Notes: generated by a model not told the origin, from the sequence alone. Numbered from the stretch's first letter, positions 15,425 through 56,922 are shown. The stretch: 64,000 nucleotides of DNA from Emiliania huxleyi CCMP1516 (GCF_000372725.1 NW_005202368.1:294293-358292); one strand, 5' to 3'. Program-made: numbers and translations.

Positions 15425-15592
15425 AGGTAGGTAGAAAGGTGAAGAAAACAGTCAGGCTTGGACTGGACACCAACGCGGTATGGCGGTAGGCGGCCCCAAG
15501 AGTTGTTCACAGCTGGGGGGGGAACAACTCTCACAGAAACTTCTGGGAAACAACTCCCACGAGAACGCCGTTCCCAGATCTCCCACCTTTCG

Positions 15593-18500: not shown

Positions 18501-21500
18501 NNNNNNNNNNNNNNNNNNNNNNNNNNNNNNNNNNNNNNNNNNNNNNNNNNNNNNNNNNNNNNNNNNNNNNNNNNNNNNNCGGTGGCGGACGTCGACCGGG
18601 ACGGGAACATGGACGTCGTCGTCGGCAACTACGGCGCAGCGAACCAAGTCCTCTTTGGGAGCGCGGGCGGAAGGAACTTCTCCGAGGTCGCCCTTCCTGG
18701 AGGGAGCAGGAATACGTACTCCACCTCGGTGGCGGACGTCGACGGGGACGGGAACATGGACATCGTTGTCGGCAACTACGGCGAAGCGAACCAGGTCCTG
18801 TTTGGGAGCGCAGGTGGGAGGGGTTTCACCGAGTTCGCCCTTCCTGGAGGGAGCGGGCAAACTCGCTCCACTTCGGCGGCGGACGTCGATGGGGACGGGA
18901 TCCTGGACATCGTCGTCGGCAACAAGTACGCAGCGAACCAAGTCCTCTTTGGGAGCACGGGCGGAAGGACCTTCACCGAGGTCGCCCTTCCTGGAGGGAA
19001 CACAAGTACTCGCTCCACCTTGGTGGCGGACGTCGACGGGGACGGGAACATGGACGTCGTTGTCGGCAACTACGGCGCAGCGAACCAGGTCCTGTTTGGG
19101 AGCGCGGGCGGAAGGAACTTCACCAAGGTCGCCCTTCCTGGAGGGAGCAGGAACACGTACTCCACCTCGGTGGCGGACGTCGACGGGGACGGGATCGTGG
19201 ACATCGTGGTCGGCAACTTCGGCACAGAGAACCAGGTCTTTTTTGTTGGCTTCTGCCCGACGGGAGGTGCACAGGTCCACGGCAAGAGCTGGTGCTACAA
19301 GTGCCCTTCCTTCATGGGACTCGCGGGCGCCTCCTGCGTGGAGTGCCTCCCCGACTTTGTGCAGCAGCCCGGGAGCGGAGAGCTCTGCGCATCAGACCCC
19401 TGCCCCCTTGGCGAGCGCCCGTTCGGCAGCGACGCGTGCACCGCTTGCAAGGACAAGCCGGGCGTCTTCTACAACACCAGCGCCGCCGCGGCGCGCACAG
19501 AGCGCGACTCAACCACATGGATTCAACCCAGTTGCGTGGAGTGCCCAATGGGCAGCGTCGCGAACGGTGTCGCCGTCGACGAGTGCTTTGCTTGCGCTGC
19601 GGGTTCGTACCAGAACCTGATTGGCCAGGCCGAGTGCAAGCGGTGCCCCGCGGGCCAGTTTCAGCCGGAGCGCGGACAGACGTCGTGCGACAGGTGTGCC
19701 ACGGGCGGATACTGTGATGATGCCGAGAACTGTGGCGGCGGCTTCACGCCCTGCCCAGCGGGTACATTCAACGAGAAGACGGGTAGCAGCTCGTCCGACG
19801 CCTGTCAGCCGTGCCCCCCCGGAACCTCTAGCCCGACCGCCGGCGCAGACAGCAGCGAGACGTGCGCGAGCTGCCGTGCTGGGACGTTTGGTGGCGAGCC
19901 CGGGCTGAGTGAGTGCACGGACTGCCCTCCCGGCGCGTCGTCAAACCAAGGGAGCGATTCGTGCGAATCGTGTGAGGCGGGCTCTTACGCCGCCAACGCT
20001 GGCCAGGGCCAGTGCATCCCATGTCCTCATCCCCTCGGTAGTGGGCGCGGCGACGTCATTTGCTCCGTCTGCATGAAGGACTACTACCTGCTCTCGAGCG
20101 CCGACCCCGACGACATCTTCAAATCCCCGACCGATTACTGCAAGTCCTGCCCGCCGAACGCCGACTGCCCAGTCAACACGACTCTCCAGTCCCTCGGTAT
20201 CCCGGCCGGCTTCTGGCGCGCTAGCCCCTTCAGCGCCGTGTTGACAGAGTGCGGCGGCTTTGGCGGCGATGGCGAGGCCGGCAAGCAGCGATGCGCCGGC
20301 AGCGAGGCAAAGGCCTCTCGTCGCCGGAGGATGGAGGCTTCGGACGAGTACTGCGCTTCCGGCTTCACTGGCCCGGAGTGCCAGCTCTGCGTCGCAGCGA
20401 ATCACTACCTCGTCGACGGATACACGTGCGAAGAATGCGCTCCGCGCGCCGCTGTGGCTGGCCGCATTGTCGCCCTCGTCATCGGTGCCTGTATTGCCTG
20501 TGGCCTCGCGGTTTGGGCCTACAGCATGACGAAATGGCGGAAGGAGCGCTTCATCGGCCGCGTGCTCCGCTTTGCCGATCGTGCCGTCTACATTTACGTC
20601 GCGATCGGCCTCACGGCCAAGACCAAGGTTCTAATAGATGCTCCCGTTGGTTGGGAACCGATATTAGCAAGCGCCGACCTCGGTGATAGTCCATATTAGC
20701 AAGCTAATAACCGACCTGATAGGTGCTCTTTGGATTCTACCAGATCTGCACCGTGTTGTCCTCCACCTACTCGGCGCGGCTGCCGCCAGAGTACACGGGC
20801 TGGACCGACAAGCTGGCTAATACGGTCTCAATCGACTGGTCTGGCCTTTTCCTGCCGCAGCAGTGCCTCGGCTACGATTTGCGGCTGCTCGCCATCGCTC
20901 TCTCGCCCGTCGCCTTCATCGCACTGCTCATGGCAGCCGGGATAAGCCTGCGGCTCTACCGCTGGCGTGCCGCGCCGCCACCGCGCCCAATGGAAGCGAC
21001 GCCGGGAGCCGACACCGATGCAGCATTCGGCCTCGTGGAAGCATCGATGTCGGTGATGTCGGCGATCGCTGACGCGATAAACGCAGACGAGGACGCTCCG
21101 CGTGCGGCGCCGTGGTATGCTGAGGCGGCCCTCGGCGTCCTCGATCTCACGCCTGCCGGTTTGGTGCTCATCTTCTGCTTCGTGCCCTCCATCAGCGCCT
21201 CCATCTTCCGCGCGTGGTCATGCAAGGTAATGCCCCCAAACTGTTGACTGCTGCCGAAACCGACCCCCCTTCAGCGCTCGCCGTGTGTCGCTCATAGGCC
21301 TACACCATCTCTCCGCCCGACTCGCCTCTCGAGCAGGTCTCCTACATGCGGCTGGACGCGAGCGTCGAATGCTACACCGAGGATCACGAGTCCATCGCCG
21401 ACCTCGCCATCGGCCTTATCGCCCTGTGGCCTGCGGGCTCGCTGATCCTCTTCACTTCGCTCCTCGTCGCCTGCTACAAGCCGCTACAGGCCAAGAGGCC

Positions 21501-23488
21501 GAATGCCCTGACGCGGGCCACCGGCTTCCTCCACCGGGAGTACAAGAAAAAATGCTACTGGTGGGAGGTGGTCGAGCTGGCGCGCAAGCTCGTGCTCACG
21601 GGCTTCGTGCTGCTGATCCCGGAGAAGAGCGCCTTCCTTCGCCTCGTGGTGGCGACCCTCGTCTGCTCCTTCTACGCCGTCGTGCTCGCCGTCGTGCGGC
21701 CCTTCAAGCGGGTCGAGGATAACGTGCTGGCCGTGGTGCGCCAGCCACCCCTCACCCCCTTTACACTTGCTAAAGCGAGGCACGGCTTGGATTGCAGGCC
21801 ACCAGCCTCGTGCTCCTCCTCCTCTTCCTCGCCGCGAACTGGACGACCATCTTCCTCGGTATCATTGAGCGCTCCAGCGTCGACACCGCCGATGCAGTCC
21901 TCGGCTTCGATAACCTGTCTGAGATCATCAACTCGATGCTCGTCCTCGTCGGCGTGACGCTGCTCTTCTTCCTCATCGGTGCCGTCTTCTCCGCCCGCCA
22001 CGCCAAGGAGGTTCCCACGATCCGCCTCGTCTCGACCAACCAGCCGCCCGAGCTGAGCGTCGGGATGGGCATCACGTGGCATCTCTTCAACAGCCACATC
22101 TGGAGTACCGGTCAAGACGCCGTCGCGGTCATCAAGAAGCAGCTGCAGATCCTGCTGCCTGGCATCAAGATCTTCCTCGACGCGCGCGCATGCTGCCCAG
22201 TCGCGCTGCATGGCGAGCAAAGCCCCTCTGACGCACCGCGGTGCGCGCATAGGTAGATGACCTCAAGGATATCGGAGCGCTCGAGGAGTACATCCAGCGC
22301 TCGCAGGTCATCCTCTTCTTCCTCTCTAGGGGCTACTTCAAGTCCAGGGCGCCTCATGCTTCTATCCTGCCTCTGTCATAGCCCAAGCTCCCTTGCCTCA
22401 CCCCGTGCCCGCCTGTGCGCCATAGAACTGCCTTCGAGAGGTCCGCTCGTCGCTCGAGATGGACAAGCCGCTCGTCCTCGTCCAAGAGGCCGACCCGGCC
22501 AAGGGCGGCGGGACGCTACCAGCGCTGCGCGCAGAGTGCCCCGAGGAGCTCCAGCCCGACATCTTTGACAAGGACTGGCCGCTCACGATCTGGTACCGGA
22601 TCAAGGAGTTTCAGATTGTCTCGCTCAAGATCACCGCCGAGGCGCCCCCGCCCGCAGCCAGAGCCCCTCCGCAGTCCTCTCCCTCTCCCGACCAACCCCA
22701 CTTGAACTCTACAGGCGCTGCTCCTTTGTTCGCCCAACTTTCTGGACAGCACCTCCCTTCCGCTCACAGTGACGGGCGAGCTGCGGATCAGGGCATTCGG
22801 CTTCTCCACGTTCGCAAAGGTCTGGGCCTCTCCGGCCAACGCCGGCGCAAAGGAGCTGGCCGATGAGCTCGTCGCCGCCTTTCCCGGCCTCACCGTCTCC
22901 ACCGCCGAGGAGGCTGGCGACGCGACCCACATGCTGCTCTACCTCAACGAGCACAGCTTCAGCGACGAGCGGCTGGCCGAGCAGGTTACGCAGGCGCGCC
23001 AGGACAGGCTGCCGATCGTCATGGCGCACGAGAACGACCCGGACCGCGGCGGCTGCGAGTTCGCCAAGTTTTTTGAGACCACGCCGCAGGTGGAGCGAGT
23101 GACACCCGTCCTGAGCCTCCCCTCCCCCCACAAACCTCTCCTTCCAACGCCGCAGGAGCTCATCGCGGGCGGGCTCTACAAGGACCTCGCGCGCTCGTGC
23201 TTCCCCGGGCGCCACCGCGAGGCGCGCGCTCGCCCCCTCGCCGCCTGGTGGGCGCTCACCGGCCGTCACGCCGCGCTGCTCAACCCGCCCCCCGCGTAGG
23301 CGTCGCTCGTGCTCCTCGCAAAGGGTCTCGGCGCGACTCCGGTCAAGAGCGCCGACCTCAGATCGAGCATCGTGCGCCGCACGTCAACGGCCTTCCGCAG
23401 CCTTGGCGGCGTCCGGCTCCGCGCCTCAGAGCGCTCAACCTCGGGAGAAGCCGAGGCAGCGACGTCGGCATCGGCAGAGCACGTGTAG
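15593..23488 (+). CDS. Receptor-like protein A: ShKT-like Cys domain, poly-Pro, FG-GAP repeat array, GCC2/ephrin-receptor-like Cys-rich repeats, about 8-9 TM helices, TIR plus a second TIR-like domain
   Basis: Signal-like MRLLLLGLLAGLAVA at 15593 (true start uncertain). Inferred introns: 20628-20722, 21227-21297, 21736-21797, 22182-22252, 22349-22425, 22642-22714, 23090-23155, 23222-23299. Splicing gives 'WHLFNSHIWSTGQDAVAVIKKQLQILLPGIKIFLDVDDLKDIGALEEYIQRSQVILFFLSRGYFKSRNCLREV' (TIR). Stop TAG ends at 23488. The frame across the N gap cannot be verified. Confidence 0.85.
17141..19245 (+). repeat. Coding tandem repeat of 147 bp (49-aa FG-GAP/VCBS blades), at least 12 units, interrupted by a gap
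   Basis: Units start at 17141, 17288, 17435, 17582, 17729, 17876 and 18023, and after the gap at about 18696, 18843, 18990 and 19137. Each has the Ca-binding-type motif DVDGDGxxD. Confidence 0.95.
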
Positions 23489-24185: not shown

Positions 24186-24473
24186 TCGCGCGCCTGACCC
24201 AGGCGCGAGAAACGAATCTGCGAGGCGTGGCCGCTTATGCGGTCCGATGGGGAGGAACGGGGCGAGCCCCCTCCAACCCACCCGCGCTAGGTCTCGGGTT
24301 TGACGCATGGGGTCACTCCCGCGAAACTCGTGAACTAGCCGGGGCAGTCGGAGAAGGGGCAACTCCGTGCACTGACGGTCGGCCGCCAGAAAACACGCCT
24401 GCGTGGATCGCGTCACACCAATCCTCGCTACCCAACGCGGCCAAAGAATATCCACCTCGAGAACCTCGAGAAC
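24186..24473 (-). mobile_element. SINE-like dispersed repeat (reverse orientation copy)
   Basis: Reverse complement of the family at 41857-42430, 43667-44015, 50421-50615 and 56381-56577. Confidence 0.8.
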
Positions 24474-29056: not shown

Positions 29057-29206
29057 AAGGTCAGGTAAGGTCAGGTAACCTTCTCAACACACGCGAGGTG
29101 GTGGGGCAAGGGCCGGGCAGTCCCTCGCGTCTCCACGTCTAACGACAGGAGCCCCACGGCATTCAAAGTGCAAGGCCAAGTGCGCGTGGGTGAGCGGTGG
29201 GTGTGC

Positions 29207-29273
<67 letters not shown>

Positions 29274-31658: not shown

Positions 31659-34600
31659 ATGAGCTTGTCTGCGGCGGGGGCCGGCGCGGCTGCAGACGCG
31701 CCGCTGCTCGGCCAGCGCGTCCTGCTCGGCGGGCTCTCCTCCCGCCCCGAGCTAAACGGGCAGCGGGGCGTTGCGCAGAGCTTCGAGGGCGGGAGGTACG
31801 CGGTGGCGCTCGAGGGCGGCGGCGAGAGCGTGCGGGTGCGGCCGGGTAATCTGTCGCCGGCTGCGGCGGAGCGGGCGTCGAGCGGTGCCGCGGCAGCCCC
31901 CGATGCGGTCATCGCAGCAGCGGAGCGTGGCGAGGAGGAGGCGGTGCTGGCGTGGCTTGAGGGCGGCGGGCGGGCCGACGCGACGTACGAGAGAGACGGC
32001 TTGAGCGGCCTCACGCTGCTGATGGGCGCCGCCAACAACGGCCACGAGCGAGTGGTCGAGATGGTGCTGCGGGGCGGGGCAGAGGTCAACCTGCAGAACA
32101 GCAGCGGCTGGACTGCGCTGATGATGGCCGCCTTCCAAGGCCACGAGCGGGTGGTCGACCTGCTGATACGGCGCGGCGCGGAGGTCAACTTGCAGAGCAG
32201 CAAAGGCGTCACCGCGCTGATGCACGCCGCTTCCTTCGGCCGCCCCGCCGTCGTGCGGCGCTTGCTGCGGGCGGGCGCAAACACCGCGGCGCGCAATGCG
32301 AGCGGCAAGACGGCGCCGCAGCTGGCCAAGGAGAAGGGCAACACCGAGTGCGTCGAGGCCTTCAAGAAGCACGTCCAGGAGGTGGTGGCGGGACGGCTCA
32401 CGGCGACGGCAGCCGACGGCGAAGGCGCAGGCGGCGCTTCCTCCGGCGGCGCTTCCTCGGCTGGATCGAGCGTCGCGAAAACGCTATCTCCAGCGGTGGC
32501 GGCGGGGCGGGCGTCAAGCGGTGGCGTGGTAGTCTCCGACGAGGTCGTGGCAGCGGCTGAGCGAGGCGAGGAGGAGGCGGTGCTGGCGTGGCTTGACAGT
32601 GGCGGGCGGGCCGACGCGACGTACGAGAGTGACGGCGTCAGCGGCATCACGCTGCTGATGGTCGCCGCTTGCTACGGCCACGAGCGGGTGGTCGAGTTGC
32701 TGCTGCGACACAGTGCAGAGATCAACCTGCAGAACAGCAAAGGTGGCACCGCGCTGATGGTCGCCGCCCGCACCGGCCACGAGCGGGTGGTCGACTTGCT
32801 GCTGCAGCGCGGCGCGGAGATCGACCTGCAGAACAGCAGCGGCAACACCGCGCTGATGGCTGCCGCCGGCTACGGCCACGAGCGGGTGGTCGAGCTGCTG
32901 CTGCAGCGCGGCGCGGAGATCAACCTGCAGGAAAGCGGCGGCTCCACCGCGTTGATGTTCGCCGCCGGCAACGGCCGCGAGCGGGTGGTCGAGCTGCTGA
33001 TTCGGCGCGGCGCGGAGATCAACCTACAGGACAGCGACGGCGACACCGCGTTGATGACCGCCGCCTTCGGCCACCCCGCCGTCGTGCGGCGCTTGCTGCG
33101 GGCGGGCGCAGACGCGGCGGCGCGCAATGCGAGCGGCACGACGGCGCTCCAGATGGCCAAGGAGCAAGGCCACGCCGCATGCGTGCGCGCCCTCGGGGAG
33201 CATGCGGCGGCGGCGGCGGCGGCTGAGAAGGCGGCGAAGGAGGCGGCGTGGGTTGCGGGGGCGGAGGCGAGGGAGGCGGAGAGAGCGGCGGCAGAGGCGA
33301 CTGCGGCGCGGCATGCCGAGGCGCTGCTGGCGGAGGAGGAGGCGGAGAAGGAGGAGCGCGCCAAGGAGAGCAAGAAGGGCAAGAAGAAGAAGAAGAAGAA
33401 GAGCGGCGGCGGCGAGGCAGACAACGAGGCGCCTGGCCCCAGCGCCACCGCCGATTTGCAGCCGCCAACCCCACCGCCAGCCCCATCTCCTCCGCCCGCC
33501 GACGCAGCCGCCATCGCCGCGGCGGACGAGGCGCTGCAGCAGGCAGTGGCCGCTGGCTCGTACGAGGGACTAGCGAGCGCGCTGGAGGCGTACAGCAGCC
33601 TCGCGAGCCCGGCCGTGCTGGCGGCGGCGAGGCGCGCGCGTGACAAGCTCAAGGAGGCGCGGAGGCGGGACAGCCAGCGGTTGCGCAAGGCGCATGGCGC
33701 GGCGATGGGCGCGCTCAAGTCGCTCGACACCGCAGACAGCCCCTCCGCGCTCCGAGCGGGCATCGCCGCCGCCAGGCCGCACGTGGGCGCGCTGCCTGCT
33801 TTGGCCGAGGAGGTTAGCGCGGCAGAATCGAAGCTGGGAGAGCTGTCTGTCGCCGCCGCGCCAGCCGCGGCGGAGGCGGCTGTTGCTCGGCCAGTCGAGA
33901 TAGCCCTGTCGGACCTCACCGCGGCTACCGACGGGTTTGCAGAGGGCAAGCTGATTGGCAGCGGCGGCTTCAGCCACGTCTACGAGGCGTCGGCCGACCT
34001 CCACCTCTCCCTCGCCGCGCCGCCGCAGCTGCGCCACTTGCCGCTCGTCGTCAAGCGGGCAAAGTCGGGCCAGTCGGGCGGCTTGTCTCGGGCGGAGCTC
34101 GAGGTGAAGCTTCTCAAGGCGGTGAGCCACCCGCACCTGCTGCCGCTGCTCGGCTACTGCCTCTCGCCCGACGGCGTCTGCCTCCTCTCGCCGCTGATGC
34201 GCGGCGGCTCGCTCGAGGCGCGGCTGCGTATCTCGGATCCCGACCGAGCGGCGCAGCTCCGGCGGCTGGGGATGGTAGAGCCGCCGAGGCCGCTGACGTG
34301 GCGGCAGCGCGTTCGCATTGCGTGCGAGGCGACCGAGGCGCTCGTCTACCTCCACTCGAAGGGCATCGTGCACCGCGACGTGAAGCCGGACAACATCCTG
34401 CTCGATGAGGAGCTGACCGCCGTGCTCGCCGACACGGGCTTCGCCAAGGACCAGCGGCCGGACGCGTCTGTTCGCTGCCGCTCGACTGCCCTCTACATGA
34501 CCACGGGCTACCTCTGCCCCTCCATCACCAAGGGGGGCGAGTACTCGAGCAAGACGGACGGCTACGCCATCGGCATCACCCTCCTCGTCTGCCTCACCAG

Positions 34601-35276
34601 CCGCTCCGAGGTGCAGCTCACCGACCGGTGCGAGGAGGAGTTTGACGGACTCTGGACCAACATCGACGCGTCCAAGATCGCAGAGGCGGCGGCGGGGTGG
34701 CCGGATTTAGCGGCGCGCGCTGTCAAGGACCTCGCCAAGGCGGGAGACGGGCAGAAGAGCCTCTGCCACGACAGCTTGCGCAACCGCTGCACGCTACCCG
34801 AGGCTCTCACGACGCTCCGGGGGCTGCTGTGTGGCGCACAAGGCGGGGCGGGGGTGGAGGAGGCTGCGCCGGCACCTGGAGACGAGGCCGCTGCGGCAGC
34901 CGCCCGCACCACCGGGTACGAGCCTTCGCCGCTCTCGGTGCAGGTGCGCGGCATGCGCATGGGCGGCGACGCGCAGGCGCGCATCCAGGACAACATGATG
35001 CTCGCCTTCAAGACGCTGATGCCGCGCCTCGACGCTGCTTACGCCTCGCGCTCTGCGGCGGCGCCCGACAGCTTCGAGGAGCGCATCAACTTTTGGCACC
35101 GCGAGTGCGGCCTGCCGACAGAGCTGCGGAGCCAGCTGCACTCGCTGCGCATCTGGGCGAACGCGGCGAGGCACCACGACGCGGCGAGGTGGCGGAGGGA
35201 CGGGCCGCGCAGCGAGGGGGAGGCTTCGCGGCTCGTGGCCGCGGTGACGGAGACGATCGGGGCGATCGAGGGGTAA
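31659..35276 (+). CDS. Ankyrin-repeat / Pelle-IRAK(RLK)-like protein kinase with an N-terminal SH3-like module and a possible HEPN/DUF4145-like C-terminus
   Basis: Intronless 1205-aa ORF. Two ankyrin blocks (3 and 5 TALMxAAxxGH-type repeats). Kinase motifs 'LSDLTAATDGFAEGKLIGSGGFSHVY', 'LTWRQRVRIA' and 'HRDVKPDNILLD'. C-terminal 'LHSLRIWANAARHH'. Confidence 0.9.
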   Translation: MSLSAAGAGAAADAPLLGQRVLLGGLSSRPELNGQRGVAQSFEGGRYAVALEGGGESVRVRPGNLSPAAAERASSGAAAAPDAVIAAAERGEEEAVLAWLEGGGRADATYERDGLSGLTLLMGAANNGHERVVEMVLRGGAEVNLQNSSGWTALMMAAFQGHERVVDLLIRRGAEVNLQSSKGVTALMHAASFGRPAVVRRLLRAGANTAARNASGKTAPQLAKEKGNTECVEAFKKHVQEVVAGRLTATAADGEGAGGASSGGASSAGSSVAKTLSPAVAAGRASSGGVVVSDEVVAAAERGEEEAVLAWLDSGGRADATYESDGVSGITLLMVAACYGHERVVELLLRHSAEINLQNSKGGTALMVAARTGHERVVDLLLQRGAEIDLQNSSGNTALMAAAGYGHERVVELLLQRGAEINLQESGGSTALMFAAGNGRERVVELLIRRGAEINLQDSDGDTALMTAAFGHPAVVRRLLRAGADAAARNASGTTALQMAKEQGHAACVRALGEHAAAAAAAEKAAKEAAWVAGAEAREAERAAAEATAARHAEALLAEEEAEKEERAKESKKGKKKKKKKSGGGEADNEAPGPSATADLQPPTPPPAPSPPPADAAAIAAADEALQQAVAAGSYEGLASALEAYSSLASPAVLAAARRARDKLKEARRRDSQRLRKAHGAAMGALKSLDTADSPSALRAGIAAARPHVGALPALAEEVSAAESKLGELSVAAAPAAAEAAVARPVEIALSDLTAATDGFAEGKLIGSGGFSHVYEASADLHLSLAAPPQLRHLPLVVKRAKSGQSGGLSRAELEVKLLKAVSHPHLLPLLGYCLSPDGVCLLSPLMRGGSLEARLRISDPDRAAQLRRLGMVEPPRPLTWRQRVRIACEATEALVYLHSKGIVHRDVKPDNILLDEELTAVLADTGFAKDQRPDASVRCRSTALYMTTGYLCPSITKGGEYSSKTDGYAIGITLLVCLTSRSEVQLTDRCEEEFDGLWTNIDASKIAEAAAGWPDLAARAVKDLAKAGDGQKSLCHDSLRNRCTLPEALTTLRGLLCGAQGGAGVEEAAPAPGDEAAAAAARTTGYEPSPLSVQVRGMRMGGDAQARIQDNMMLAFKTLMPRLDAAYASRSAAAPDSFEERINFWHRECGLPTELRSQLHSLRIWANAARHHDAARWRRDGPRSEGEASRLVAAVTETIGAIEG

Positions 35277-41856: not shown

Positions 41857-42447
41857 CTCGAGGTTCTCGAGGTGGATATCCTTTGGCCGCGTTGGGTAGC
41901 GAGGATTGGTGTGACGCGATCCACGCACTTGGAGCACTTGGAGTGCAGTCATTCACCGCACATCCAGGGCCGGGGAGCTCAGAAGCGCACCCAGCGGGCC
42001 GGATGATTGGCATCGGGTTGCGGGCAAGAGAGCCCTAGCCCCGGGGGTGCGCGTTCGCAGGGCAAGGGCCTTAAAGTAAACACGGGTCTCGCAGGCGTGT
42101 TTTCTGACGGCCGACCGTCAGCGTGCACGGAGTTGCCCCTTCTCCGACTGCCCCGGCTAGTTCACGAGTTTCGCGGGAGTGACCCCATGCGTCAAACCCG
42201 AGACCTAGCGCGGGTGGGTTGGAGGGGGCTCGCCCCGTTCCTCCCCATCGGGCCGCATAAGCGGCCACGCCTCGCAGATTCGTTTTCGCGCCTGGGTCAG
42301 GCGCGCGGGGCATCCCCCGGGTCGCTCGACCAGCGATCCGAAGAGTGGCCGCTATGCGAAGGAAAGAGTGGGGCCCTCGGGGTACGCCTCCATCCGGCCC
42401 CCTCCGAGGGGGGAAGGGAATTGCGGGGTGGGCCTCTCTATCTCCCA
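41857..42447 (+). mobile_element. SINE-like element flanked by a 22-bp direct repeat (putative TSD)
   Basis: actgtgaacagtcgttatctct occurs at 41835-41856 and 42448-42469. The body matches 4 other copies in the window. Confidence 0.75.
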
Positions 42448-43666
42448 ACTGTGAACAGTCGTTATCTCTATACTAGCAGGTTGGCTCGCTAGTCGCTCGC
42501 CGGCCCGCGCAGCACGCGCGGGCCTTTTTTGTGGTCGGATGTTGGTCGTCTCGAATTTGATCGTGGGCAGGGCGTGAGAAAGCTGGACGGCTCGGTCGAT
42601 GCGAGCCACCAGCTCGTGAGCGACGGGCGCGACGGGTTCCTCGGCGTAGGCTTGGGCGTGGTGAGCAGCGCCGGCGAGAGAGGGACGGCATGCGGCTCCG
42701 AAACGAGCCGCACGGGCTTCATCTGGGCCGCCGAGGCCACCTCCTTGGTCGCGGTGGCGGGCGTGAAGGCGAGGTGGGCCGAGGCAAGCGCTGAACGTGC
42801 CGTGCCGCCTTGCGCCCCTGAGGAGGGACGAGTGTGTGGGGTGCCACGGGCGGGGGGAGGGCACCCCCACGAGGGGCTGCGCTGACGCCGCCTGCCACCC
42901 CACGCACGCCACTGACGCTGTGGGGGCGGCACGATCGAACGCGCTGGTCGGGCGGGCCGTCTGAGTCGCCCAAGCGGTGCTCTGCCGGCCGGTGGACGCG
43001 AGGGTGGCCCAAGAGGGCTCAAAGTACGGAGCCGATACCCGGCCGTCCCGGACGCGTGGCACGCGGGCCAATGGTCCAGCCGTCCTGTGCATGGCTGGAG
43101 CGAAGGAGGGAGAGCTCAGGAGGGCGACGGGGCAGGGAAGGGGGCGATGCGATGCGGCGAGGTCTAATCGGCGGCGTGGAGAGAGGAGGTGCCAAAAGGC
43201 GACTATAGAGAGGCCTCTACGGGTGATATAGTGCGCCATGCCGGCGGGAGAGGTCTCTCACCGCCCCCCGGGCCGTCTCGAAGGGCCGTGCAGCCCACGC
43301 CACGAGGCGCTGCTGGCGGGAGCCTGGAAGGACTTGGCCTCGTTGCACCGCGCCGCGTTGATTCGCGACCACCGTCGGCCGCGGACGGCGTCGGCGTGGC
43401 GGCCGCGGGCGCTCGCGAGACGCGCCGCTCTGCGCTGGTTCGGTTCGTTCGACTCGTTGTGCCGCCGCACGCCCGGCGGCCGCGGGTCCCAGTCTGCAGA
43501 AGTGGTTGCGCGGGCCTCTTCCTTTCGGCCGCGGGACGGCGTCGGGCACGTCGTCGGTCGCAACAGCGGCGCGGCGAGCCGCGGCACGTCGTTGCTGGCG
43601 CTGGTGGTTTGAGGTTGGCATCGTCCAGAGCTCGGTCGACGAGTCTAGAGCTACAGCTGGCCGAGG

Positions 43667-44015
43667 GTTCTCGAGGTTCTCGAGGTGGATATCCTTTGGC
43701 CGCGTTGGGTAGCGAGGATTGGTGTAACCCGAGCCACGGAGGCGTGTTTTCTGGCGGCCGACCGTCAGTGCACGGAGTTGCCACTTCTCCGACTGCCCCG
43801 GCTAGTTCCCGAGGTCGTCGGGTGTGACCCCTTCGTCCCCCGAGACCTAGCGCGGGTGGGTTGGAGGGGGCTCGCCCCGTTCCTCCCCATCGGGCCGCGT
43901 GAGCGGCCTCGCCTCGCAGATTCGTTTTTCGCGCCTGGGTCAGGCGCGCGGGGCATCCCCCGGGTCGCTCGACCAGCGATCCGAAGAGTGGCCGCTATGC
44001 GAGGGAAAGAGCGGG
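43667..44015 (+). mobile_element. SINE-like dispersed repeat copy
   Basis: Begins 'ttctcgaggttctcgaggtggatatcctttggccgcgttgggtagcgagg', like the copy at 41857. Confidence 0.8.
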
Positions 44016-44163
44016 GCCCGAGGGTGCCACATTTGTGCGGAAAGTGGGAAATATATCTCTTTGATGCGCAGCTATTCATAGCCGCGCCTGTTGTTTGTGT
44101 GTGTATCCGCGCTCTTGGCGCGATTACGAGACCTAGGCGTAATCGCTCTCGTACGAGACCTAG

Positions 44164-44280
44164 GTGGCAGACGCGCTCGAGATGCCGTTCCCGGACGAGT
44201 CGTTCGACCTTGTCAGGTCGCTCGAGTCGGGGGAGCACATGCCCGACAAGGAGAAGTTCGTCTCAGAGCTCACGAGAGCT
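44164..44280 (+). pseudogene. Isolated fragment of gamma-tocopherol methyltransferase (VTE4-like SAM methyltransferase)
   Basis: 'VADALEMPFPDESFDLVRSLESGEHMPDKEKFVSELTR' closely matches the VTE4 family motif FDLVWSMESGEHMPDK. No other exons were found nearby. Confidence 0.75.
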
Positions 44281-44526
44281 CTCTCTCCGGCTCTCCGCTC
44301 TCGCTTCGCGCTTCGCCCTCATGCGCGACGCAATTTCGCTAATCTCGACAGTCACTAATAGACAACAACGAACCGCCAACCACGTAGTACACCGATATTC
44401 ACCCGCGCACACCTAAATCTCGCTAGCAAGTGGACGCAAGCTCTCTCCTACGACCTTCGACCTATATACGGTGTACATACGGGCACTCGACATATTCTTC
44501 GCCGGTTTCTCGCTCACCGCTCCTCG

Positions 44527-45762
44527 CTAATTTGGCTGCGCCAAAGCTGGGCCAAAGACATCGAGATGGATGCTCCGCGCGCCCGCCGCCTTGAGCGCCG
44601 CGGACATGTCCGCGAGGAAGGGCGGCGGGCCGCAGAGGAAGAAGTCGCATTCCGCCAGGTACGGCTTGAGGGCGCCCTCCACGAGCGCTGCCGCCTCTGG
44701 CCGCCCGCCCGCGTCTGTGTAGTGGAAATGCGTCCCGGCACTGCTAGCCTCCATCTCCTTCCGAAAGGGGTGCGCCGCCTCGTCCCTGTCTATGTGCAGG
44801 ACGAACTTGACCTGCTCGGGCGCACTGTCGAGAAAGCACTTCATCGGCGTCGCGCCCACCCCTGCCGAGCAGAGCACCGCCGGGCGGCCGCTCAACTTGA
44901 ACGTGCCAAAAGGTGCGGAGACGCCGACGACGTCGCCCTCCTTCATGCCGTGGAGGGCGGAGGAGACGAAGCCGCCCTCGACAAGTTTCGGGCAGCACTG
45001 CAGGTAGTCCTTGCCGGGCGCGTTCGTCACGGTGTAGTGGCGTGGCGTCGAGCCCTGCTTGTGCAGGTGCAGCGTCAGGAACTGGCCTGGCGTGAAGTCG
45101 ATTGGTCCGGCGCCGTCGACAGGCTTGAAGGTGAGCTCCACGCAGTCCGTCGCGACGCGCCGGGTCCCAGCCACCCTGAAGTCCTTCACCCCCTTCCAGC
45201 CGCCACGCCGCCCCGCCGACTCGGCGTAGAGCTTTGCCTCCAGCTCACAAAGGTTCTTGGCGAGAGCAAGCACGGCCTCGCTCCAACCCTCGCCAACCTC
45301 TGGCGTGACAGCGTCGCCCATGACGTGCCCGATAGACTCCATCAGGTTCTGGTGCACGATCGAGTAGTGGCGCGGCTTGACGCCGAGGCCGCAGTGTTTG
45401 TGAGCGATGATCTCCAGCGCCCCCGTCAGCTTGGACAGGTCGTCGATGGAGGTGGCGTAGGCTACGACTGCGTTGGCCAGCGCCATGCGCTGCAACGGCG
45501 GCTCCTTGAACTGATTGGCCGGGTTGAAGAAGGCCTTTGCTTCAGGGCTGTTGCTGAACATGCGAGGGTAGAAGTCGTCGACGATCTCTCTCACCTTGGG
45601 TGCGACCGCCGGTGCTGTCGCCTTGACGATCGCGGCGAAGGGGCAGCCAGACATAGTCACCGCCGGAGACGTCGACTTGACGATTGCGGTGGAGGGACAG
45701 CCAGACATGGTGTCTGCCAGAGATGTCGAGTAGCCGATCGCGGCGGAGGGGCAGCTAGACAT
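44527..45762 (-). CDS. hmp: Flavohemoglobin (nitric oxide dioxygenase), intronless
   Basis: Globin domain (FYxxMF, FNxANQ, IAHKH, HY), FAD-binding motifs (PGQF, RHYTV, GFVS) and NAD-binding motifs (SAGVGATPM, LCGP, FGP). Alternative starts at 45762, 45708 and 45654. Confidence 0.95.
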   Translation of the reverse strand: MSSCPSAAIGYSTSLADTMSGCPSTAIVKSTSPAVTMSGCPFAAIVKATAPAVAPKVREIVDDFYPRMFSNSPEAKAFFNPANQFKEPPLQRMALANAVVAYATSIDDLSKLTGALEIIAHKHCGLGVKPRHYSIVHQNLMESIGHVMGDAVTPEVGEGWSEAVLALAKNLCELEAKLYAESAGRRGGWKGVKDFRVAGTRRVATDCVELTFKPVDGAGPIDFTPGQFLTLHLHKQGSTPRHYTVTNAPGKDYLQCCPKLVEGGFVSSALHGMKEGDVVGVSAPFGTFKLSGRPAVLCSAGVGATPMKCFLDSAPEQVKFVLHIDRDEAAHPFRKEMEASSAGTHFHYTDAGGRPEAAALVEGALKPYLAECDFFLCGPPPFLADMSAALKAAGARSIHLDVFGPALAQPN

Positions 45763-46411
45763 GGCGCGGTGGCTAACGAGCCGGACGCCGCGCACGGAGG
45801 TCATGGGTGAGGTCAAAGGCCGGCAAGGAGATTGCTGACACGTTCAGGCAGGACGTGTTGGCGGCGCCCTTATTGCAAGATAAAAAATCTGGGTGCACCC
45901 AAGTGTCAAGCGTTGAGCACCGGTGTCTCTGGGAATGGTAATAGTATTCCGCATTCATTGCGAGGGCGGACGGTCTCGGGAACCGTACCCATACTACTCA
46001 AAAGTACAATATCTACCACAAAGCATGCAGCAGGTGGGCGTGCGGAGCGTCGGGCATCGGCTCGCCATCCCGGGAGCTTCCCTTGAGCGGCCCGGGCTGG
46101 GACCGACCGCGGGAGGCTGCCTGCCTGCACCAACCAACCAACGGACATGAGCGATCCGCAGTCGTCGAAGAGCCCCCCCCCCCCCCCCCCCTGCTAGTGT
46201 CTGTCGTCGTTCCTACCCCTGATCCTACCCCACGGCACGCTAATGTCTGTCATCTCCAGCGCACAAAAGAAAAATTTGGTTATCCCGCAGGAAACCGGCG
46301 CTCAACCAACACCCCCTTGTTACACCCCACCACCCGAGCTGCAGCAGGTGAGGAAGCTGTCCGCGTCTCTGCTCGGCACGCAGTGGGCCGGGATCGAGTC
46401 GCCCCCCGCCA

Positions 46412-48191
46412 ATGCGCCGGAGTGTTTTGCGGATTCGCTCACTCACTGCCGCTGCGGCCTTGTCCGCCGGCTCCACCCTCCGCTGCGAGCCCTCCGCTCC
46501 CTCAGCAGCCAAGCAGCAGGAGCGCGCGTCGAAGAGTCTCGCCATGCAGCAGGAGGTTTCGGCCGCCGAGAATAGCGGTGCGGCCCGCTTCAACGCCGCC
46601 CAGAACCCGTCCACCTTCCGCGTCGACGTCTCTGTTCAAGCCGAGCCGGAGGTCGCCGCGGCGAAGCGCTTTGAAGAGGAGCTGGACAACGCTCTCGATC
46701 ACCACGCAAAGCTTACCAAGGCCTACTCGCCACCGTCCCTGACTCTCCCACTCGCCACCGTCCCTGACGACTGCTACCAGCATGGCGGCCGCCCTCACCG
46801 CGCCTCCCCCCGTCCTCAAGGTTGACGCCGTCCGTGTGGCCGCCATCGAGGCGCTGCCGCGCATCAAGGCGCCCCTCACCATGGCGCCCCACGTGCCGCC
46901 GCCCATTGAGCGGAGAACGCCGGCCCGCCTCGTCGTCGACTTGTACAGCACGGAGAAGACGATGCCTGTGTCGCCATCCTGCAAGTACCCGTTCTGGACT
47001 TTCAACGACGGCGTGCCGGGGCCGATGATCCGGGCCCGCGTCGGGGACGTGCTCGAGGTACCTACGGCCGCCTCTCCGCCGTAGCCCTTCTCCTCTCGGT
47101 CGCCCCCTCCGCGCCGCGGCCCTGACCCCCGACCCGCCTCCACCAGGTGAACTACACGAATCGGGCCGAGTCGGGCATGGCGCACAACATCGACCTGCAT
47201 AGCGTGGTGGGCCCAGGCGGCGGGGGCCCGTGCCTGTATGCGGAGCAGGACGAGACCAAGACAGGCATTTTCAAGTGCACCTCGCCTGGGCTGTTCGTGT
47301 ACCACTGCGCGGCTGCGCCTGTGCCGGTCCACATTGCGAACGGCATCGCGCGCCGCCTGCCCCGCCGAAGCCCCGGCCTCCCCACCCGCAGCGCTGCGGC
47401 GGTGGGCGCCACCCCTACTAGTCGGCATCTCCCTTCTCTTACCAGGCACCCACCCCTCGCCGCAGGCATGTTTGGCCTCGTGCTTGTGGAGCCAGAGGGC
47501 GGGCTGCCCTCCCCACCGCCACACCGCCTCTGTCTGCTCACCGCCACGCCCGAAACGCCTCGCGAAGGCGCTCTCACCGAAGCGTGCGGCGCGCCGCCTC
47601 CGCGCAGGCGGCCTTCCTCCGGTGGACCGAGAATTCTACGTGGTGCAGCACGAAGTGTACTCCGCCGAGGACGAGGAGGGGTCGAGTGTGCTGGAGCTCG
47701 ACTACGAGGCGGGGCTGCGGGAGAGTCCGACGTATGTGGTCTTCAACGGCCGGGAGGGTGCATTGACCGAGAGGCCGCTGATGGCGAAGCAGGGCGAGCG
47801 CGTGAGGATCTACTTCGGCAACGCCGGGCCCAACCTGATCTCGAGCCTCCACGTGATCGGCGCGATCTTTGACAAGGCCACGTCGTGCTAGTTGCGGGTG
47901 GGGCCCGAGGTTTCGAATTAAGTTGCCTATTACTGCTAGGTCTATCGCGAGGGCGACCTGATCTCGCCGCCGGCGCGGGGTATCGGTGTCACGGCGGTTC
48001 CTGCTGCGGGTACCACCGTGGTCGAGTTTGACGCACTCGTACCCGGCAGCTACACCCTGGTGGACCACAGCATATTCCGCATCGACAAGGGCGCCGTGGG
48101 CTTTCTGAAGGTGAAGGGCGAACCGAGGCCCGACCTGTACGACTCCAAGGAGATGAAGGTGTACTGCGATGGGTGCAAGCTGCACTCGTGA
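46412..48191 (+). CDS. nirK: Copper-containing nitrite reductase (NO-forming), 6 exons, with a putative mitochondrial presequence
   Basis: Inferred exons 46412-46720, 46821-47057, 47147-47342, 47466-47498, 47608-47876 and 47940-48191. Motifs WTFNDGVPGPMIR, HNIDLH, YHC...HIANGM, YVVFNG, NAGPN.ISSLHVIG and LVDH supply the type-1 and type-2 Cu ligands. Confidence 0.93.
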
Positions 48192-48258
48192 GAGGGGGAA
48201 TTGATTGATGGGAAGGCGAAACACAGTCCGACCAACGACTGGGACACCAACGCGTTAT

Positions 48259-48402
48259 GGGTAAGGTAAGGTAAGGGTAAGGTAAACTTCTCCACACACA
48301 CGAGGTGGTGGGGCAAGGGGGGGCAACCCTCGCGTCTCCACGTCTAACGACAGGAGCCCCACGGCATTTAAAGTGTGCAAGGCCCGGTGCGCGTGGGTGA
48401 GC

Positions 48403-48450
<48 letters not shown>
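48259..48450 (+). mobile_element. (GT)n-tailed dispersed element copy
   Basis: Matches 29057-29380 and 56701-56922. Confidence 0.8.
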
Positions 48451-48451
<1 letters not shown>

Positions 48452-48719
48452 CGAAAGTAACGACGGCCATGCTAACGACGGGCGGCACGGTGGTAGGGGC
48501 GAAGGTAGGCCCCTCTAGCATAGCGGAAGGGGAACTAGGCCTACTGGCGACGAGGAGGCTGGAAAAATTCGAGGTATGTAGCATCTACACTGGGGAGATC
48601 TTCCGGACAGGAATCGGGAATACGTATACTCGGTGCGTGTACGTCACTTGCCAGTCCAAATGCGTCGCATTCCGCAGCCCGTCGAACGCCTCCCCCTTCA
48701 AAAATAAATAGAAAACGTC

Positions 48720-49860
48720 AATACATACACGTAATCATCGCGTGCGTGACGGTGCGATGGCCCTGTGGTTGCCTCATACGTACCACGTGTCACGTATACG
48801 GATTATGGATCTCCGCCGGTGCGCCGCGGCCCGCGGGAGGGCGGGGCGTCTTCGACGTATCACGTATCCGCATTACGCATACGTCCTTTTCACCGCAAAG
48901 CTTTGCCCCGGGGACGGTGCAATGGCCCGCGCGGCGGGTGCCTTACGTACCACGTCTCACGTTTCCGGATTATGTATCTCGCCCCGCGCGCCCCCGAGCC
49001 CCCCCCCCCTTACGTATCACGCATACGCATTACGCATTACGTATGTTTCATCCTTCGTAGTCCAAGGCAATGTTACAAAGCATAAATTGTACAAAGACAA
49101 TGGCAGTGAAGTGCCAAGAGAGACACCTTCTCCGCCGACAGTCAAACAGTTCCCTCGAGGTCTCACAGGACCCACACACAGCAGATTGCAGAGGCGCGCG
49201 GGCAGCCCGAGCGGCAGCGCCAGTGCGCGCACATAAAGGGGGGGGGGGTGGGGGGTTAGGGGGTGGCTGTCGAGGGCTATGCCCGAGTCTGTTGTTACCA
49301 GCGCACATACAACCCCAGCCAACTTATGGCAGCCCGAGCGGCAGCGCCAGTGCGCGCACATAAAGGGGGTTGGGGGGGGGATGCGTAATACGTATGCGTA
49401 ATACGTGGTGCGTAAGCCCTCTCCGACACCTTGGGCGTGCAAATGCGTAATACGTATGCGTAATACGTGAGGCGTAACCCCCGTCAGCCACCACTTCTCA
49501 CTCGAATCCGGAATGCGTGTGCGTAGTACGTGGTGCGGAGGCCCTCTCCGCACACCTTGGGCGTGCGAAGCTGCGTAAAACGTATGCGTAATACGTGAGG
49601 CGTAACCCCCGTCAGCCACCACTTCTCACTCGAATCCGGAATGCGTGTGCGTAGTACGTGGTGCGGAGGCCCTCTCCGACACCTTGGGCGTGCGAATGCA
49701 TCAAGCGTATGCGTAATGCGTGAGGCGTAACCCCCGCCGGCCGCCACTTCTCACTCGAATCCGGAATGCGTGTGCGTAGTACGTGGGGCGTAGCGCGCCT
49801 TGAGAGGCACACCCCGATCGGCCGAAGGTGGATGCAGAAGACAGATTCGTAATACGCAAG
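48720..49860. repeat. TACG/CGTA-motif-rich region including about 3 tandem units of 125-128 bp
   Basis: 'cgaatccggaatgcgtgtgcgtagtacgtgg' at about 49503, 49631 and 49756. tacgcattacg motifs on the left face atgcgtaatacg motifs on the right. Confidence 0.85.
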
Positions 49861-50118
49861 ACATTTGTAGCTCCCTCAGGCGCCACTTGGCTCGGGCACG
49901 ACACCGAAATACGCGCCGTCTGGCCGACGCACTATGGATCGCGGGCGCGTATTTACATAACATGGCCGATCTGTGCATTCTGGGCGACTACATATGCGTA
50001 GCAGTACAGACAACCTCCCGTACCTGTGCAAGAGGGTGCGGAGAGTGAGTTGAGGAAATGAATTCCTACCTGTGTACGGCTTTATGGCGCGCGCGGGCGG
50101 GCTGATTGCTTCAGCAGT

Positions 50119-50235
<117 letters not shown>

Positions 50236-50949
50236 AAAACCAACAACGAACAAGTAATCACGACTCTCACAAGTGTGAAGTGATCACGTACGATGTAGCA
50301 CTAGCAGTTGTGGCTCGTGGTCGTGCGAGTGCATACAACCCGAGCGTGCGAACTGCGAACGCGACCTCGCTCCTCGGGGGCTGCAGGGAAGGGCGGTGTA
50401 AGTAGCCGATCCTCGAAGTCCGCCCCGTTCCTCCCCATCGGGCCGCATAAGCGGCCACGCCTCGCAGATTCGTTTCTCGCGCCTGGGTCAGGCGCGCGGG
50501 GCATCCCCCGGGTCGCTCGACCAGCGATAGCGATCCGAAGAGTGGCCGCTATGCGAAGGAAAGAGCGGGGCCTCGACGCCTCAGTCCGGCCCTCCGAGGG
50601 GGGAAGGGAATTGCGGGAGCAATCCTGGGAGTGCGGCTGCCGATTGAAGTGCTACGGAACACCCGCCATAAAAACGGTATGGCGGTGGAATGCTCTCTAC
50701 TGCCGCGGCGCCCCTGTCGGTGCGAAGGCGCCCGGCGGGGGCCGCGCGCTTGGTCCTTGCTCTCCTTGAGGTGCTCCAAGATTGCAACATCGTGCGGCAA
50801 GAGACAAGACGATACAAGAATTTGCAATTTCCGGCGGAGTTTTTAGTTCCTAGATCAAATCCCGAAGAAAAATAGTACACACGCCTAGCAGCCTAACTAC
50901 GCCACGCATCTCTCCGGTCGGGCCGCGGCGTGGGCTGCGCGCCGGGCTG

Positions 50950-51615
50950 TCAGCAGGACGTCGCGCTCCGGTCGTGGCACAGGTTGGTGATCCAGTGCGT
51001 GTACTCGCCCAGCTCGACGCCGAGCGCGTCGGCGACGTGCTGCAGCAGTGTGGAAAAGAAGTGGATGTTCTTGACGAAGATGGTTGCGTTCTGCATGCGC
51101 ACGATGCCCGTGCACTTGAGCTTGCCATCCTCCAGATACAGGTGCAGCTCGCGGCAGCACTTGTTCATCCCCTGCACCGTCCAATCGTTGGCCTCGCTGC
51201 CGCCCGCGCCGCCCGCCTCGCAGCCCGTGAAGGGGAAGGTGATCGTCGCGCGCTTCGAGAGCGGCTCCAAGCGGAGGCAGTCGATCGCGTTGGCTATCTT
51301 CCGCGTGATGCCTGCGCGGTAGTCGCCCTGATCGCCGCCGCGCTCCTGGAGCTGCCACTGCGCAGCCTCCTCCGGCGTGTACTCCCAGCCCATATTTTTC
51401 TTCGTGTAGTACTCCAGCGCGCCTACCGGGAAGAGCTCCGTTGGCACCGTTGATGCGGCGACAGAGACGTCCTCGATCACCGCGACAAAGTTGCGGACGA
51501 CGTACTCGCCTCCCGGTTGAGTGATCTCGCGGAGGTGAGCGTACAGCTCCTTTGCAGTTGGAAAGTGAACGAACCCGGCGTTGAGGTTCCGGCACGGGGC
51601 GTGTTGGGACGCCAT
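50950..51615 (-). CDS. Divergent thymidylate synthase / dCMP hydroxymethylase-fold protein
   Basis: Intronless 221 aa. 'IDCLRLEPLSKRA', 'KCCRELHLYLEDGKLKCTGIVRMQNA' and 'KNIHFFSTLLQHVADALGVELGEYTHWI' follow the TS motif order. Confidence 0.75.
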   Translation of the reverse strand: MASQHAPCRNLNAGFVHFPTAKELYAHLREITQPGGEYVVRNFVAVIEDVSVAASTVPTELFPVGALEYYTKKNMGWEYTPEEAAQWQLQERGGDQGDYRAGITRKIANAIDCLRLEPLSKRATITFPFTGCEAGGAGGSEANDWTVQGMNKCCRELHLYLEDGKLKCTGIVRMQNATIFVKNIHFFSTLLQHVADALGVELGEYTHWITNLCHDRSATSC

Positions 51616-55688: not shown

Positions 55689-56380
55689 CTCGGCGACGTG
55701 CGCGCAGCTGGCAGCTGAACGCGAGCTCGAAAAATACTCACAACAAAGTACAAAGCCTCGAGGTGGATAGGTGAGCCACACCGAACGTACCGAGCGAAGA
55801 GCCGAGCGGAAGGAGGACGGGGAAGATGACTCCGAGGAGGACGAACCAGTGGAAATCCAGTTGTCAGATGTCACGATGCATCCGAAGGGGACCCCAGCGC
55901 CGGCATCATCCGTAGAGGCACGAGTGTTCGAAGAGAGAGTGGACCTGAGCAACAACATGACCTGTAGGCAAATGATCGGAGTGGGAGTCAGAAATGTGGT
56001 CCTTGCGCGAGGGGAGCTCGATAGACTCGAGGGGCCAGGATACGCCGCGAGGAGGACGGAGTTGCGCCGAAAGGCGAAAGAAGCCGCGAGAACAAGGGAC
56101 CGGCAGGCGGCGGCGTCGCAGGACGAGGCAGAAGAGAACGACGCGACAGAGGAGGAAGTGACAAGGGAGAGAACGACGAGAGTGGGACGACCGCGAGGTG
56201 GCATGAAGGTTGCAGCGAGAATCGGCGAGAGACTGCGAAGAGAGATAGGAAGAGGCAGACTCCCTAGGGTGGGCGACGGCTAGCGCACCACACACCTCTC
56301 CTTAAAATCCCTGTGTGGTGGCGGCGTGCCGTCCTCCCATCCCTCCCTTGGGTTGTCTGTTTTCTTTCTTTCTTTCTTTT

Positions 56381-56837
56381 CCTTTGGCCGCGTTGGGTAG
56401 CGAGGATTGGTGTAACCTGTAACCCGAGCCACGGAGGCGTGTTTTCTGACGGCCGACCGTCAGTGCACGGAGTTGCCCCTTCTCCGACTGCCCCGGCTAG
56501 TTCCCGAGGTCGTCGGGTGTGACCCCTGCGTCCCCCGAGACCTACCTACCTAGCGCGGGTGGGTTGGAGGGGGCTCGCTGCGGTAAAGGGGCCCCGCCAG
56601 AGCCGGAAACTTTAGGCGGAGCGAGCGCCAAACGGCTATTGCTCTCCACTACTACCGCGAAATTGCCGTGAAATCTGCTTTGCCGCCAAAGCGTGTGACG
56701 AAGGTAAGGTAAGGTAAGGTAAACTTCTCCACACACACGATGTGGTGGGGCAAGGGGGGGCAACCCTCGCGTCTCCACGTCTAACGACAGGAGCCCCACG
56801 GCATTCAAAGTGCAAGGCCCGGTGCGCGTGGGTGAGC

Positions 56838-56922
<85 letters not shown>
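56381..56922 (+). mobile_element. SINE-like repeat fragment (56381-56577) and a (GT)n-tailed element copy (56701-56922)
   Basis: Both match other copies in the window. Confidence 0.75.

What the first reader, a model, noticed from the sequence alone, without database searches (positions are those of the whole stretch)
44527..48191. Head-to-head nirK / flavohemoglobin pair: an NO source and NO sink sharing a promoter region
Seen: hmp (-) and an intron-containing nirK (+) diverge from an intergenic region of about 650 bp (45763-46411). All Cu ligands are present in NirK. Established: NirK reduces nitrite to NO, and flavohemoglobin oxidises NO to nitrate. Eukaryotic nirK is patchily distributed, and NO production has been reported in virus-infected E. 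huxleyi. Inference: a co-regulated, NOS-independent NO module (nitrite to NO to nitrate) for signalling, hypoxia or defence in a marine alga.
Basis: partly seen in the sequence, partly recalled or inferred. Interest (0 to 1): 0.8.

Follow-up and report, generated by a model that had tools for sequence, protein, structure and literature searches.

The report
Algal nitric-oxide maker beside its remover
In a bloom-forming marine alga, a spliced gene for an enzyme predicted to make nitric oxide from nitrite sits head to head with a gene for an enzyme predicted to remove it; both are known kinds of enzyme and shared control is untested, but the first is a candidate source of this alga's unexplained nitric oxide.

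Summary
Observation confirmed and refined. An intronless flavohemoglobin gene (hmp, minus strand) and a six-exon copper nitrite reductase gene (nirK, 431 aa, no stops) diverge with 607 bp between first ATGs. RNA contigs join four of five nirK introns; all copper ligands and both catalytic residues are present.

The shared-promoter module is not shown. One metagenome contig 99.6% identical across hmp has unrelated sequence from about 85 bp upstream. An unrelated divergent pair 3.4 kb away is spaced 762 bp. No conserved linkage was found, but the synteny test was weak.

NirK falls in the known eukaryotic clade, carries a presequence-like N-terminus, and is already listed for E. huxleyi. Hmp nests among dinoflagellate flavohemoglobins, so a recent bacterial origin is not supported for either gene.

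Best reading: a likely mitochondrial nitrite-reducing electron sink next to a general NO dioxygenase, complementary but loosely linked. It matters because the source of NO in E. huxleyi is stated to be unresolved. One published nitrite addition gave no algal NO. Interest 0.42.

The parts
44527..45804 (-). hmp, intronless flavohemoglobin (425 aa from ATG 45804; 411 aa from 45762; homologues start at the third repeat, about 45654)
   Evidence: unbroken RNA contigs in X1, X2, X4, X9
45605..45762 (-). 2.9 tandem copies of a 54-nt unit that triplicate the Met-Ser-x-Cys-Pro start of the globin
   Evidence: model pLDDT under 50 for residues 1-52
44343..45864 (-). extent of hmp transcript contigs (contigs do not prove a start site)
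45805..46411 (.). 607-bp region between first ATGs; holds a multi-copy piece (about 45971-46012) and a poly-C run; similarity to L001 ends at 45889
46412..46720 (+). nirK exon 1: Arg/Ser/Ala-rich start without acidic residues (presequence-like, predicted) and a motif shared with the nearest homologues
   Evidence: X1 contig 46474-46714
46821..47057 (+). nirK exon 2 (5' border inferred)
   Evidence: 3' joint in X1 and X2
47147..47342 (+). nirK exon 3: three type-1 ligands, two type-2 ligands, catalytic Asp
47466..47498 (+). nirK exon 4, 33 nt, holds the type-1 Met
   Evidence: joints on both sides in X1
47608..47876 (+). nirK exon 5: catalytic His
47940..48191 (+). nirK exon 6: last type-2 His and C-terminal CxxCxxH

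Best explanation
An intact, spliced nirK of the eukaryotic clade lies head to head with an intronless, transcribed flavohemoglobin gene; NirK likely works in the mitochondrion, reducing nitrite to NO as an extra electron sink when oxygen is low or nitrite builds up, and Hmp likely acts as the cell's general NO dioxygenase, turning NO from NirK, bacteria or infection back into nitrate. The two would be complementary but only loosely linked: hmp likely arrived later as a dinoflagellate-type, intron-free copy beside a long-resident nirK, and each gene likely has its own promoter. Shown: gene structures, residues, transcription, tree positions. Inferred: location, electron donor (cytochrome c, by analogy with fungi), conditions, order of arrival.
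For: Splicing and ligands. NirK sits with Naegleria, nematode, Chlamydomonas and Rhabdomonas proteins (SH-like 94, 32 rows), apart from nearly all GTDB bacteria; one MAG labelled Coxiellaceae lies just outside. First 25 residues: 5 Arg, 0 Asp/Glu; homologues have like extensions. Fungal NirK is described as coupled to the mitochondrial chain and Chlamydomonas NirK as predicted mitochondrial and dark-induced (passages of PMC4686598, PMC6783311, PMC7412212). Table 2 of PMC7412212 lists NIRK but no CYP55, FLV or HCP for E. huxleyi, leaving Hmp as the evident NO sink. Hmp lies in a 100/100 clade whose 6 named members are all dinoflagellates; AU p 0.035 against holding those 6 together without it. 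hmp has 0 introns, nirK 5. L001 upstream differs.
Against: Two genes of one short reaction chain as direct neighbours is unlikely by chance (about 1 in 10,000 for this pair if the genome has some 30,000 genes, a recalled figure), which favours selected linkage, though the pair was picked after the fact. No targeting predictor was run. Adding nitrite to algae gave no NO signal in PMC10356946 (passages). The three nearest Hmp relatives (P0002-P0004, 74-80%) are unnamed and may be haptophytes, the AU test was set after seeing the tree and used no mixture model, and codon GC3 of both genes is host-like (0.85, 0.84). L001 is a single contig and could be chimeric.
Confidence: 0.5

Rival explanations
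1. First reader's module: both genes are driven together from a shared bidirectional promoter and form an NOS-independent NO source and sink for signalling or defence.
For: Divergent layout, 607 bp apart; low chance of such neighbours; both transcribed in X1 and X2; a 16-nt motif (14 of 16 matches) lies before each gene in its own direction; no nos gene found and the NO source called unresolved in PMC10356946; NO rises in infection in PMC6461841.
Against: Motif reached by 9 of 200 shuffles and 24 of 112 window tiles and absent from L001; L001 lacks the region beyond 45889; multi-copy DNA lies between the genes; unrelated divergent pair at 762 bp; no linkage in 80 bacterial nirK loci.
Confidence: 0.27
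2. nirK is a rarely used or decaying gene that makes little NO in vivo; algal NO comes from nitrate reductase or another route, and hmp is there for outside NO.
For: No full-length E. huxleyi NirK among the 120 listed of 1185 hits, while Hmp has 11 cluster members; X1 also holds an intron-retaining piece and a one-base gap at 46678 at depth 3.9; lysates were reported to make NO through nitrate reductase.
Against: Frame open over 431 aa, all ligands kept, short branch (0.083), spliced in two studies, exon 2 identical on 8 other contigs; X3 matches the window at 46678.
Confidence: 0.13
3. The adjacency is an assembly join at a repeat, or a strain-specific arrangement.
For: No listed contig bridges 45890-46245; L001 differs on both sides of hmp.
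Against: No N between the genes; L001's downstream flank matches repeats found elsewhere in this window, which fits ordinary repeat polymorphism.
Confidence: 0.1

Closest known systems
Eukaryotic copper nitrite reductase NirK (with fungal Clade 1g of Pold et al. 2024, PMC10999283; AniA-like solved relatives 1kbv, 2zoo, 6the)
   Same: Two-domain CuNiR with all ligands; groups with other eukaryotic NirKs; that paper and PMC7412212 (XP_005783766.1) already name an E. huxleyi NirK (passages). That it is this locus is likely but was not checked.
   Different: Neither set of passages mentions a flavohemoglobin neighbour; no P450nor partner is listed for E. huxleyi; activity is stated to be unknown.
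Flavohemoglobin / NO dioxygenase (Hmp, Yhb1; solved 3ozu, 1gvh, 4g1b)
   Same: Globin, FAD and NAD parts with the heme-pocket residues aligned; a 425-aa cluster member is named nitric oxide dioxygenase of Emiliania huxleyi in UniRef.
   Different: Belongs to a marine-protist clade dominated by dinoflagellates; triplicated Cys-Pro start; below the bacterial equivalog cut-off.
Fungal NirK with P450nor and flavohemoglobin (Fusarium, Cylindrocarpon; Kim et al. 2010)
   Same: NirK and flavohemoglobin were already tied together functionally in a fungus (title seen in reference lists; text not seen, co-induction recalled).
   Different: Fungi reduce NO to N2O by P450nor; gene adjacency was not found in the passages read of PMC6161760.
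Chlamydomonas nitrate-NO-nitrate cycle (NR/NOFNiR with THB1) and NirK/CYP55
   Same: An algal NO source paired with a globin NO dioxygenase returning nitrate.
   Different: Uses nitrate reductase and a truncated globin, on separate chromosomes by their gene ids.

Membership tests
Copper nitrite reductase NirK | Type-1 Cu ligands His, Cys, His, Met | tested here: met
   47183, 47306, 47330, 47468; labels recalled
Copper nitrite reductase NirK | Type-2 Cu ligands (three His) and catalytic Asp and His | tested here: met
   47198, 47303, 48066; 47192, 47850
Copper nitrite reductase NirK | Whole two-domain coverage of TIGR02376 | tested here: met
   four exons scanned singly tile 11-323 of 326; the joined protein was not scored against the cut-off
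Copper nitrite reductase NirK | Nitrite-to-NO activity, trimer | not testable with these tools
   needs enzyme assay
Eukaryotic (mitochondrial) NirK clade | Groups with eukaryotic NirKs | tested here: met
   FastTree, 105 rows, SH-like 94; no fungal row in the set
Eukaryotic (mitochondrial) NirK clade | Mitochondrial targeting | tested here: inconclusive
   composition only; no predictor, no localisation
Flavohemoglobin | Globin fused to FAD/NAD reductase | tested here: met
   model pTM 0.72
Flavohemoglobin | Heme-pocket Tyr, Phe, Gln, Leu, proximal His, Tyr and Glu; FAD and NAD motifs | tested here: met
   aligned identical to 3ozu/1cqx; FAD motif ends in Thr not Ser as in most of the clade; helix labels recalled
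Flavohemoglobin | NCBIfam NF009805 equivalog cut-off 432 bits | tested here: not met
   286.6 bits; a model made for prokaryote annotation, so it lowers only 'bacterial Hmp equivalog'
Flavohemoglobin | NO dioxygenase activity | not testable with these tools
   needs assay
Bidirectional-promoter gene pair / metabolic gene cluster | Divergent, under 1 kb apart | tested here: met
   607 bp
Bidirectional-promoter gene pair / metabolic gene cluster | Co-expression | not testable with these tools
   only contigs were available for this organism; they cannot rank expression
Bidirectional-promoter gene pair / metabolic gene cluster | Conserved linkage or conserved intergenic element | tested here: inconclusive
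   0 of 38 hmp loci (36 under 3 kb) and 0 of 80 bacterial nirK loci; L001 differs upstream; no haptophyte genome searchable

The most novel reading that the evidence does not exclude
A coccolithophore built a two-gene NO switch by setting a dinoflagellate-derived flavohemoglobin in front of its mitochondrial nirK: NirK is the missing source of the NO seen in virus infection and population collapse, Hmp hides it under air (which would explain why nitrite addition showed no NO), and under low oxygen the pair could even yield N2O in an alga that lacks P450nor and flavodiiron proteins.
Probability: 0.15. Interest if true: 0.8.

Novelty: new member of a known kind. Interest (0 to 1): 0.42.

Why it matters
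E. huxleyi blooms end through viruses and bacteria, and NO is implicated in both, yet PMC10356946 states that no nos gene was found and that the algal NO machinery is unresolved. The passages read there name NOA, NOS and nitrate reductase, not an algal NirK; PMC6461841 has 0 occurrences of nirK or globin. This locus gives two named, spliced-or-transcribed candidates with exact exon borders, so the question can be put to existing RNA-seq series and to enzyme assays. If the pair is only loosely linked, it remains a modest case of an NO-detoxifying gene shared between dinoflagellates and a haptophyte.

Tried and rejected
Exon 2 starting at ATG 46782 or an intron 46721-46780: out of frame with exon 1; rejected for 46721-46820. 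One-base gap at 46678 in an X1 contig: depth 3.9, absent in X3, and it would break a motif kept in homologues; treated as error or minor allele. Absence of nirK cover in X4 and X9, and the 0.32-0.33 word share of 11 runs: contigs cannot show absence, not used as evidence. Raw-read runs X15 and X16 are other organisms (22 and 1 reads laid): no expression data. Viral contigs: 61 pattern matches, 0 Hmp relatives. Rfam 43500-50000: 0 matches at E 0.1. Dinoflagellate spliced-leader tail (recalled motif): 1 of 38 hmp loci at one mismatch or fewer, none upstream of either window gene; uninformative. Other nitrogen-oxide genes nearby: none among 76 ORFs scanned of the 150 best-scoring. Search with exon 1 against 1.84 billion representatives returned only its own fragment. 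IQ-TREE run for NirK did not finish, so FastTree was used; rows under 340 aa were left out except named ones and P0121, and 29 of 80 bacterial loci were used. No own genome is held, so copy number and other NO genes could not be checked. No fold search or Atlas result was obtained. Earlier scan notes: none bore on this. Kim 2009, Shoun 2012 and Sperfeld 2022 were not held; the last has expression tables that may bear on co-expression.

Full report
What is there. The minus strand holds one open frame from 45804 to 44527. It matches Globin and FAD_binding_6 above their Pfam cut-offs and solved flavohemoglobins at E 5e-55, with the heme-pocket and cofactor residues in register (the residue labels are recalled). 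Unbroken contigs cover it in 4 of the 4 RNA-labelled or RNA-guessed contig runs laid that hold it whole (X1, X2, X4, X9), so it has no intron. The first 52 residues are disordered in the model and come largely from a 54-nt unit in 2.9 copies.

On the plus strand four pieces tile the NirK model TIGR02376. Run X1 joins four introns, X2 two of them; three of these four are GC-AG, a habit of this species that I recall but did not test. The first intron has no RNA joint. Of 66 frame-keeping donor-acceptor pairs, 46721-46820 scored best against 7 homologues, and exon 1 carries a nine-residue motif found in the nearest homologues. The six-exon model has 431 residues, no stop, all seven copper ligands and both catalytic residues. 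X1 also holds a piece that retains intron 4 and a one-base gap at 46678 at depth 3.9; X3, which reads through introns like DNA, matches the window there. Exon 2 is identical on 8 other contigs, so the gene is not peculiar to this assembly.

Origins. In a FastTree of 105 NirKs the window's protein sits in a group of 32 with Naegleria, nematode, Chlamydomonas and Rhabdomonas proteins (SH-like 94); its nearest neighbours are unnamed; GTDB bacteria fall outside, the nearest being one MAG labelled Coxiellaceae. This fits Pold et al. (PMC10999283, passages), who place E. huxleyi NirK with the fungal clade. Its first 25 residues hold 5 Arg and no acidic residue, as in a mitochondrial presequence; this is a prediction by eye. 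Hmp lies inside a 100/100 clade of 21 of 32 rows whose 6 named members are all dinoflagellates (the same in the 111-row tree). Holding the 6 together without it costs 21 log units, AU p 0.035, a weak result: the test was chosen after the tree, used LG+G4, and the three closest relatives are unnamed. Both genes have host-like GC3. So neither looks like a fresh bacterial gene; hmp may be a later, intron-free arrival from a dinoflagellate-type donor.

Is it a module? For: neighbours in one reaction chain are unlikely by chance, and both are transcribed in X1 and X2. Against: metagenome contig L001 is 99.6% identical over 1618 nt around hmp but has unrelated sequence beyond 45889 and 44272 (best local score of the upstream 253 nt reached by 43 of 100 shuffles). 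Multi-copy DNA lies at about 45971-46012. A thymidylate-synthase-like ORF and a mitochondrial carrier diverge 762 bp apart only 3.4 kb away, so the layout itself is not rare here. A 16-nt motif before both genes is reached by 9 of 200 shuffles and 24 of 112 window tiles. No NirK was found in 38 hmp loci, but 36 are under 3 kb and most look like transcripts; no Hmp in 80 of 419 bacterial nirK loci. No haptophyte genome could be searched, so synteny is open. No listed contig bridges 45890-46245, so the adjacency rests on this assembly.

How it likely works. By analogy with fungi and Chlamydomonas (passages of PMC4686598, PMC6783311, PMC7412212), NirK would take electrons from cytochrome c in the mitochondrion and reduce nitrite to NO in the dark or at low oxygen. 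E. huxleyi accumulates and releases nitrite in exponential growth (PMC10356946, passages). Table 2 of PMC7412212 lists NIRK but no CYP55, FLV or HCP for it, so Hmp is the evident sink, returning nitrate under air and also removing bacterial NO. An upstream ATG could add a weak presequence to Hmp, but starts differ between alleles, so I do not rely on it. Against an active NO source: nitrite added to algae gave no NO signal, and lysate NO was credited to nitrate reductase (PMC6461841, passages). An efficient Hmp or an uninduced nirK could explain the first; that is inference.

What is known. Both families are well known and an E. huxleyi NirK is in print. NirK and flavohemoglobin were linked functionally in the fungus Cylindrocarpon (title only). 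I found no description of the adjacency in ten full-text searches, judged from listings, abstract starts and keyword passages of ten papers (also PMC6161760, PMC10889981, PMC3020322, PMC5307856); no paper was read whole, no supplement was seen, and subscription papers such as Wisecaver 2016 (recalled) are outside the library.

Verdict. A real, correctly read gene pair of two known enzymes; the co-regulated module is plausible (about 0.27) but unshown, and one contig speaks against a fixed shared promoter. Its value is as a concrete, testable candidate for the unresolved NO source and sink of a major bloom alga. Interest 0.42.

Noticed in passing
window 48165-48188 (nirK C-terminus): A C-terminal CxxCxxH motif is kept in 97 of 105 full-length hits, eukaryotic and Omnitrophota-type alike; a word search of PMC10999283 found no mention. 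Possibly a further metal site.
   Followed up: partly
window 45605-45762: The Cys-Pro start typical of this flavohemoglobin clade is triplicated; Cys-Pro is recalled as a heme-regulatory motif.
   Followed up: partly
window 50953-51615 (-): Single-exon ORF of about 220 aa with only weak thymidylate synthase matches (E 0.003, far below cut-off), head to head with a mitochondrial carrier gene at 52378.
   Followed up: partly
window 44164-44271 (+): Isolated methyltransferase fragment (Methyltransf_11) between a dispersed repeat and the hmp 3' end; similarity to L001 stops at its edge (44272).
   Followed up: partly
window 43667-44019, 42079-42376, 24187-24473, 50421-50617, 56380-56578; and 48263-48450, 29057-29243, 56701-56885: Two families of dispersed repeats at about 90-97% identity flank the pair; a 125-bp tandem array lies at 49387-49790.
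   Followed up: no
window 15443-23296 and 31659-35273: Large FG-GAP/ephrin-like repeat membrane protein gene and an ankyrin-repeat protein kinase.
   Followed up: no
P0149, P0155, P0177, P0184: Nematodes (Panagrolaimus, Ditylenchus, Aphelenchoides) carry NirK that groups with the eukaryotic clade.
   Followed up: no
P0192, P0197, P0217: Bacterial NirKs of about 530 aa carry an extra N-terminal domain PF01814 (hemerythrin, name recalled), a possible NO-handling fusion.
   Followed up: no
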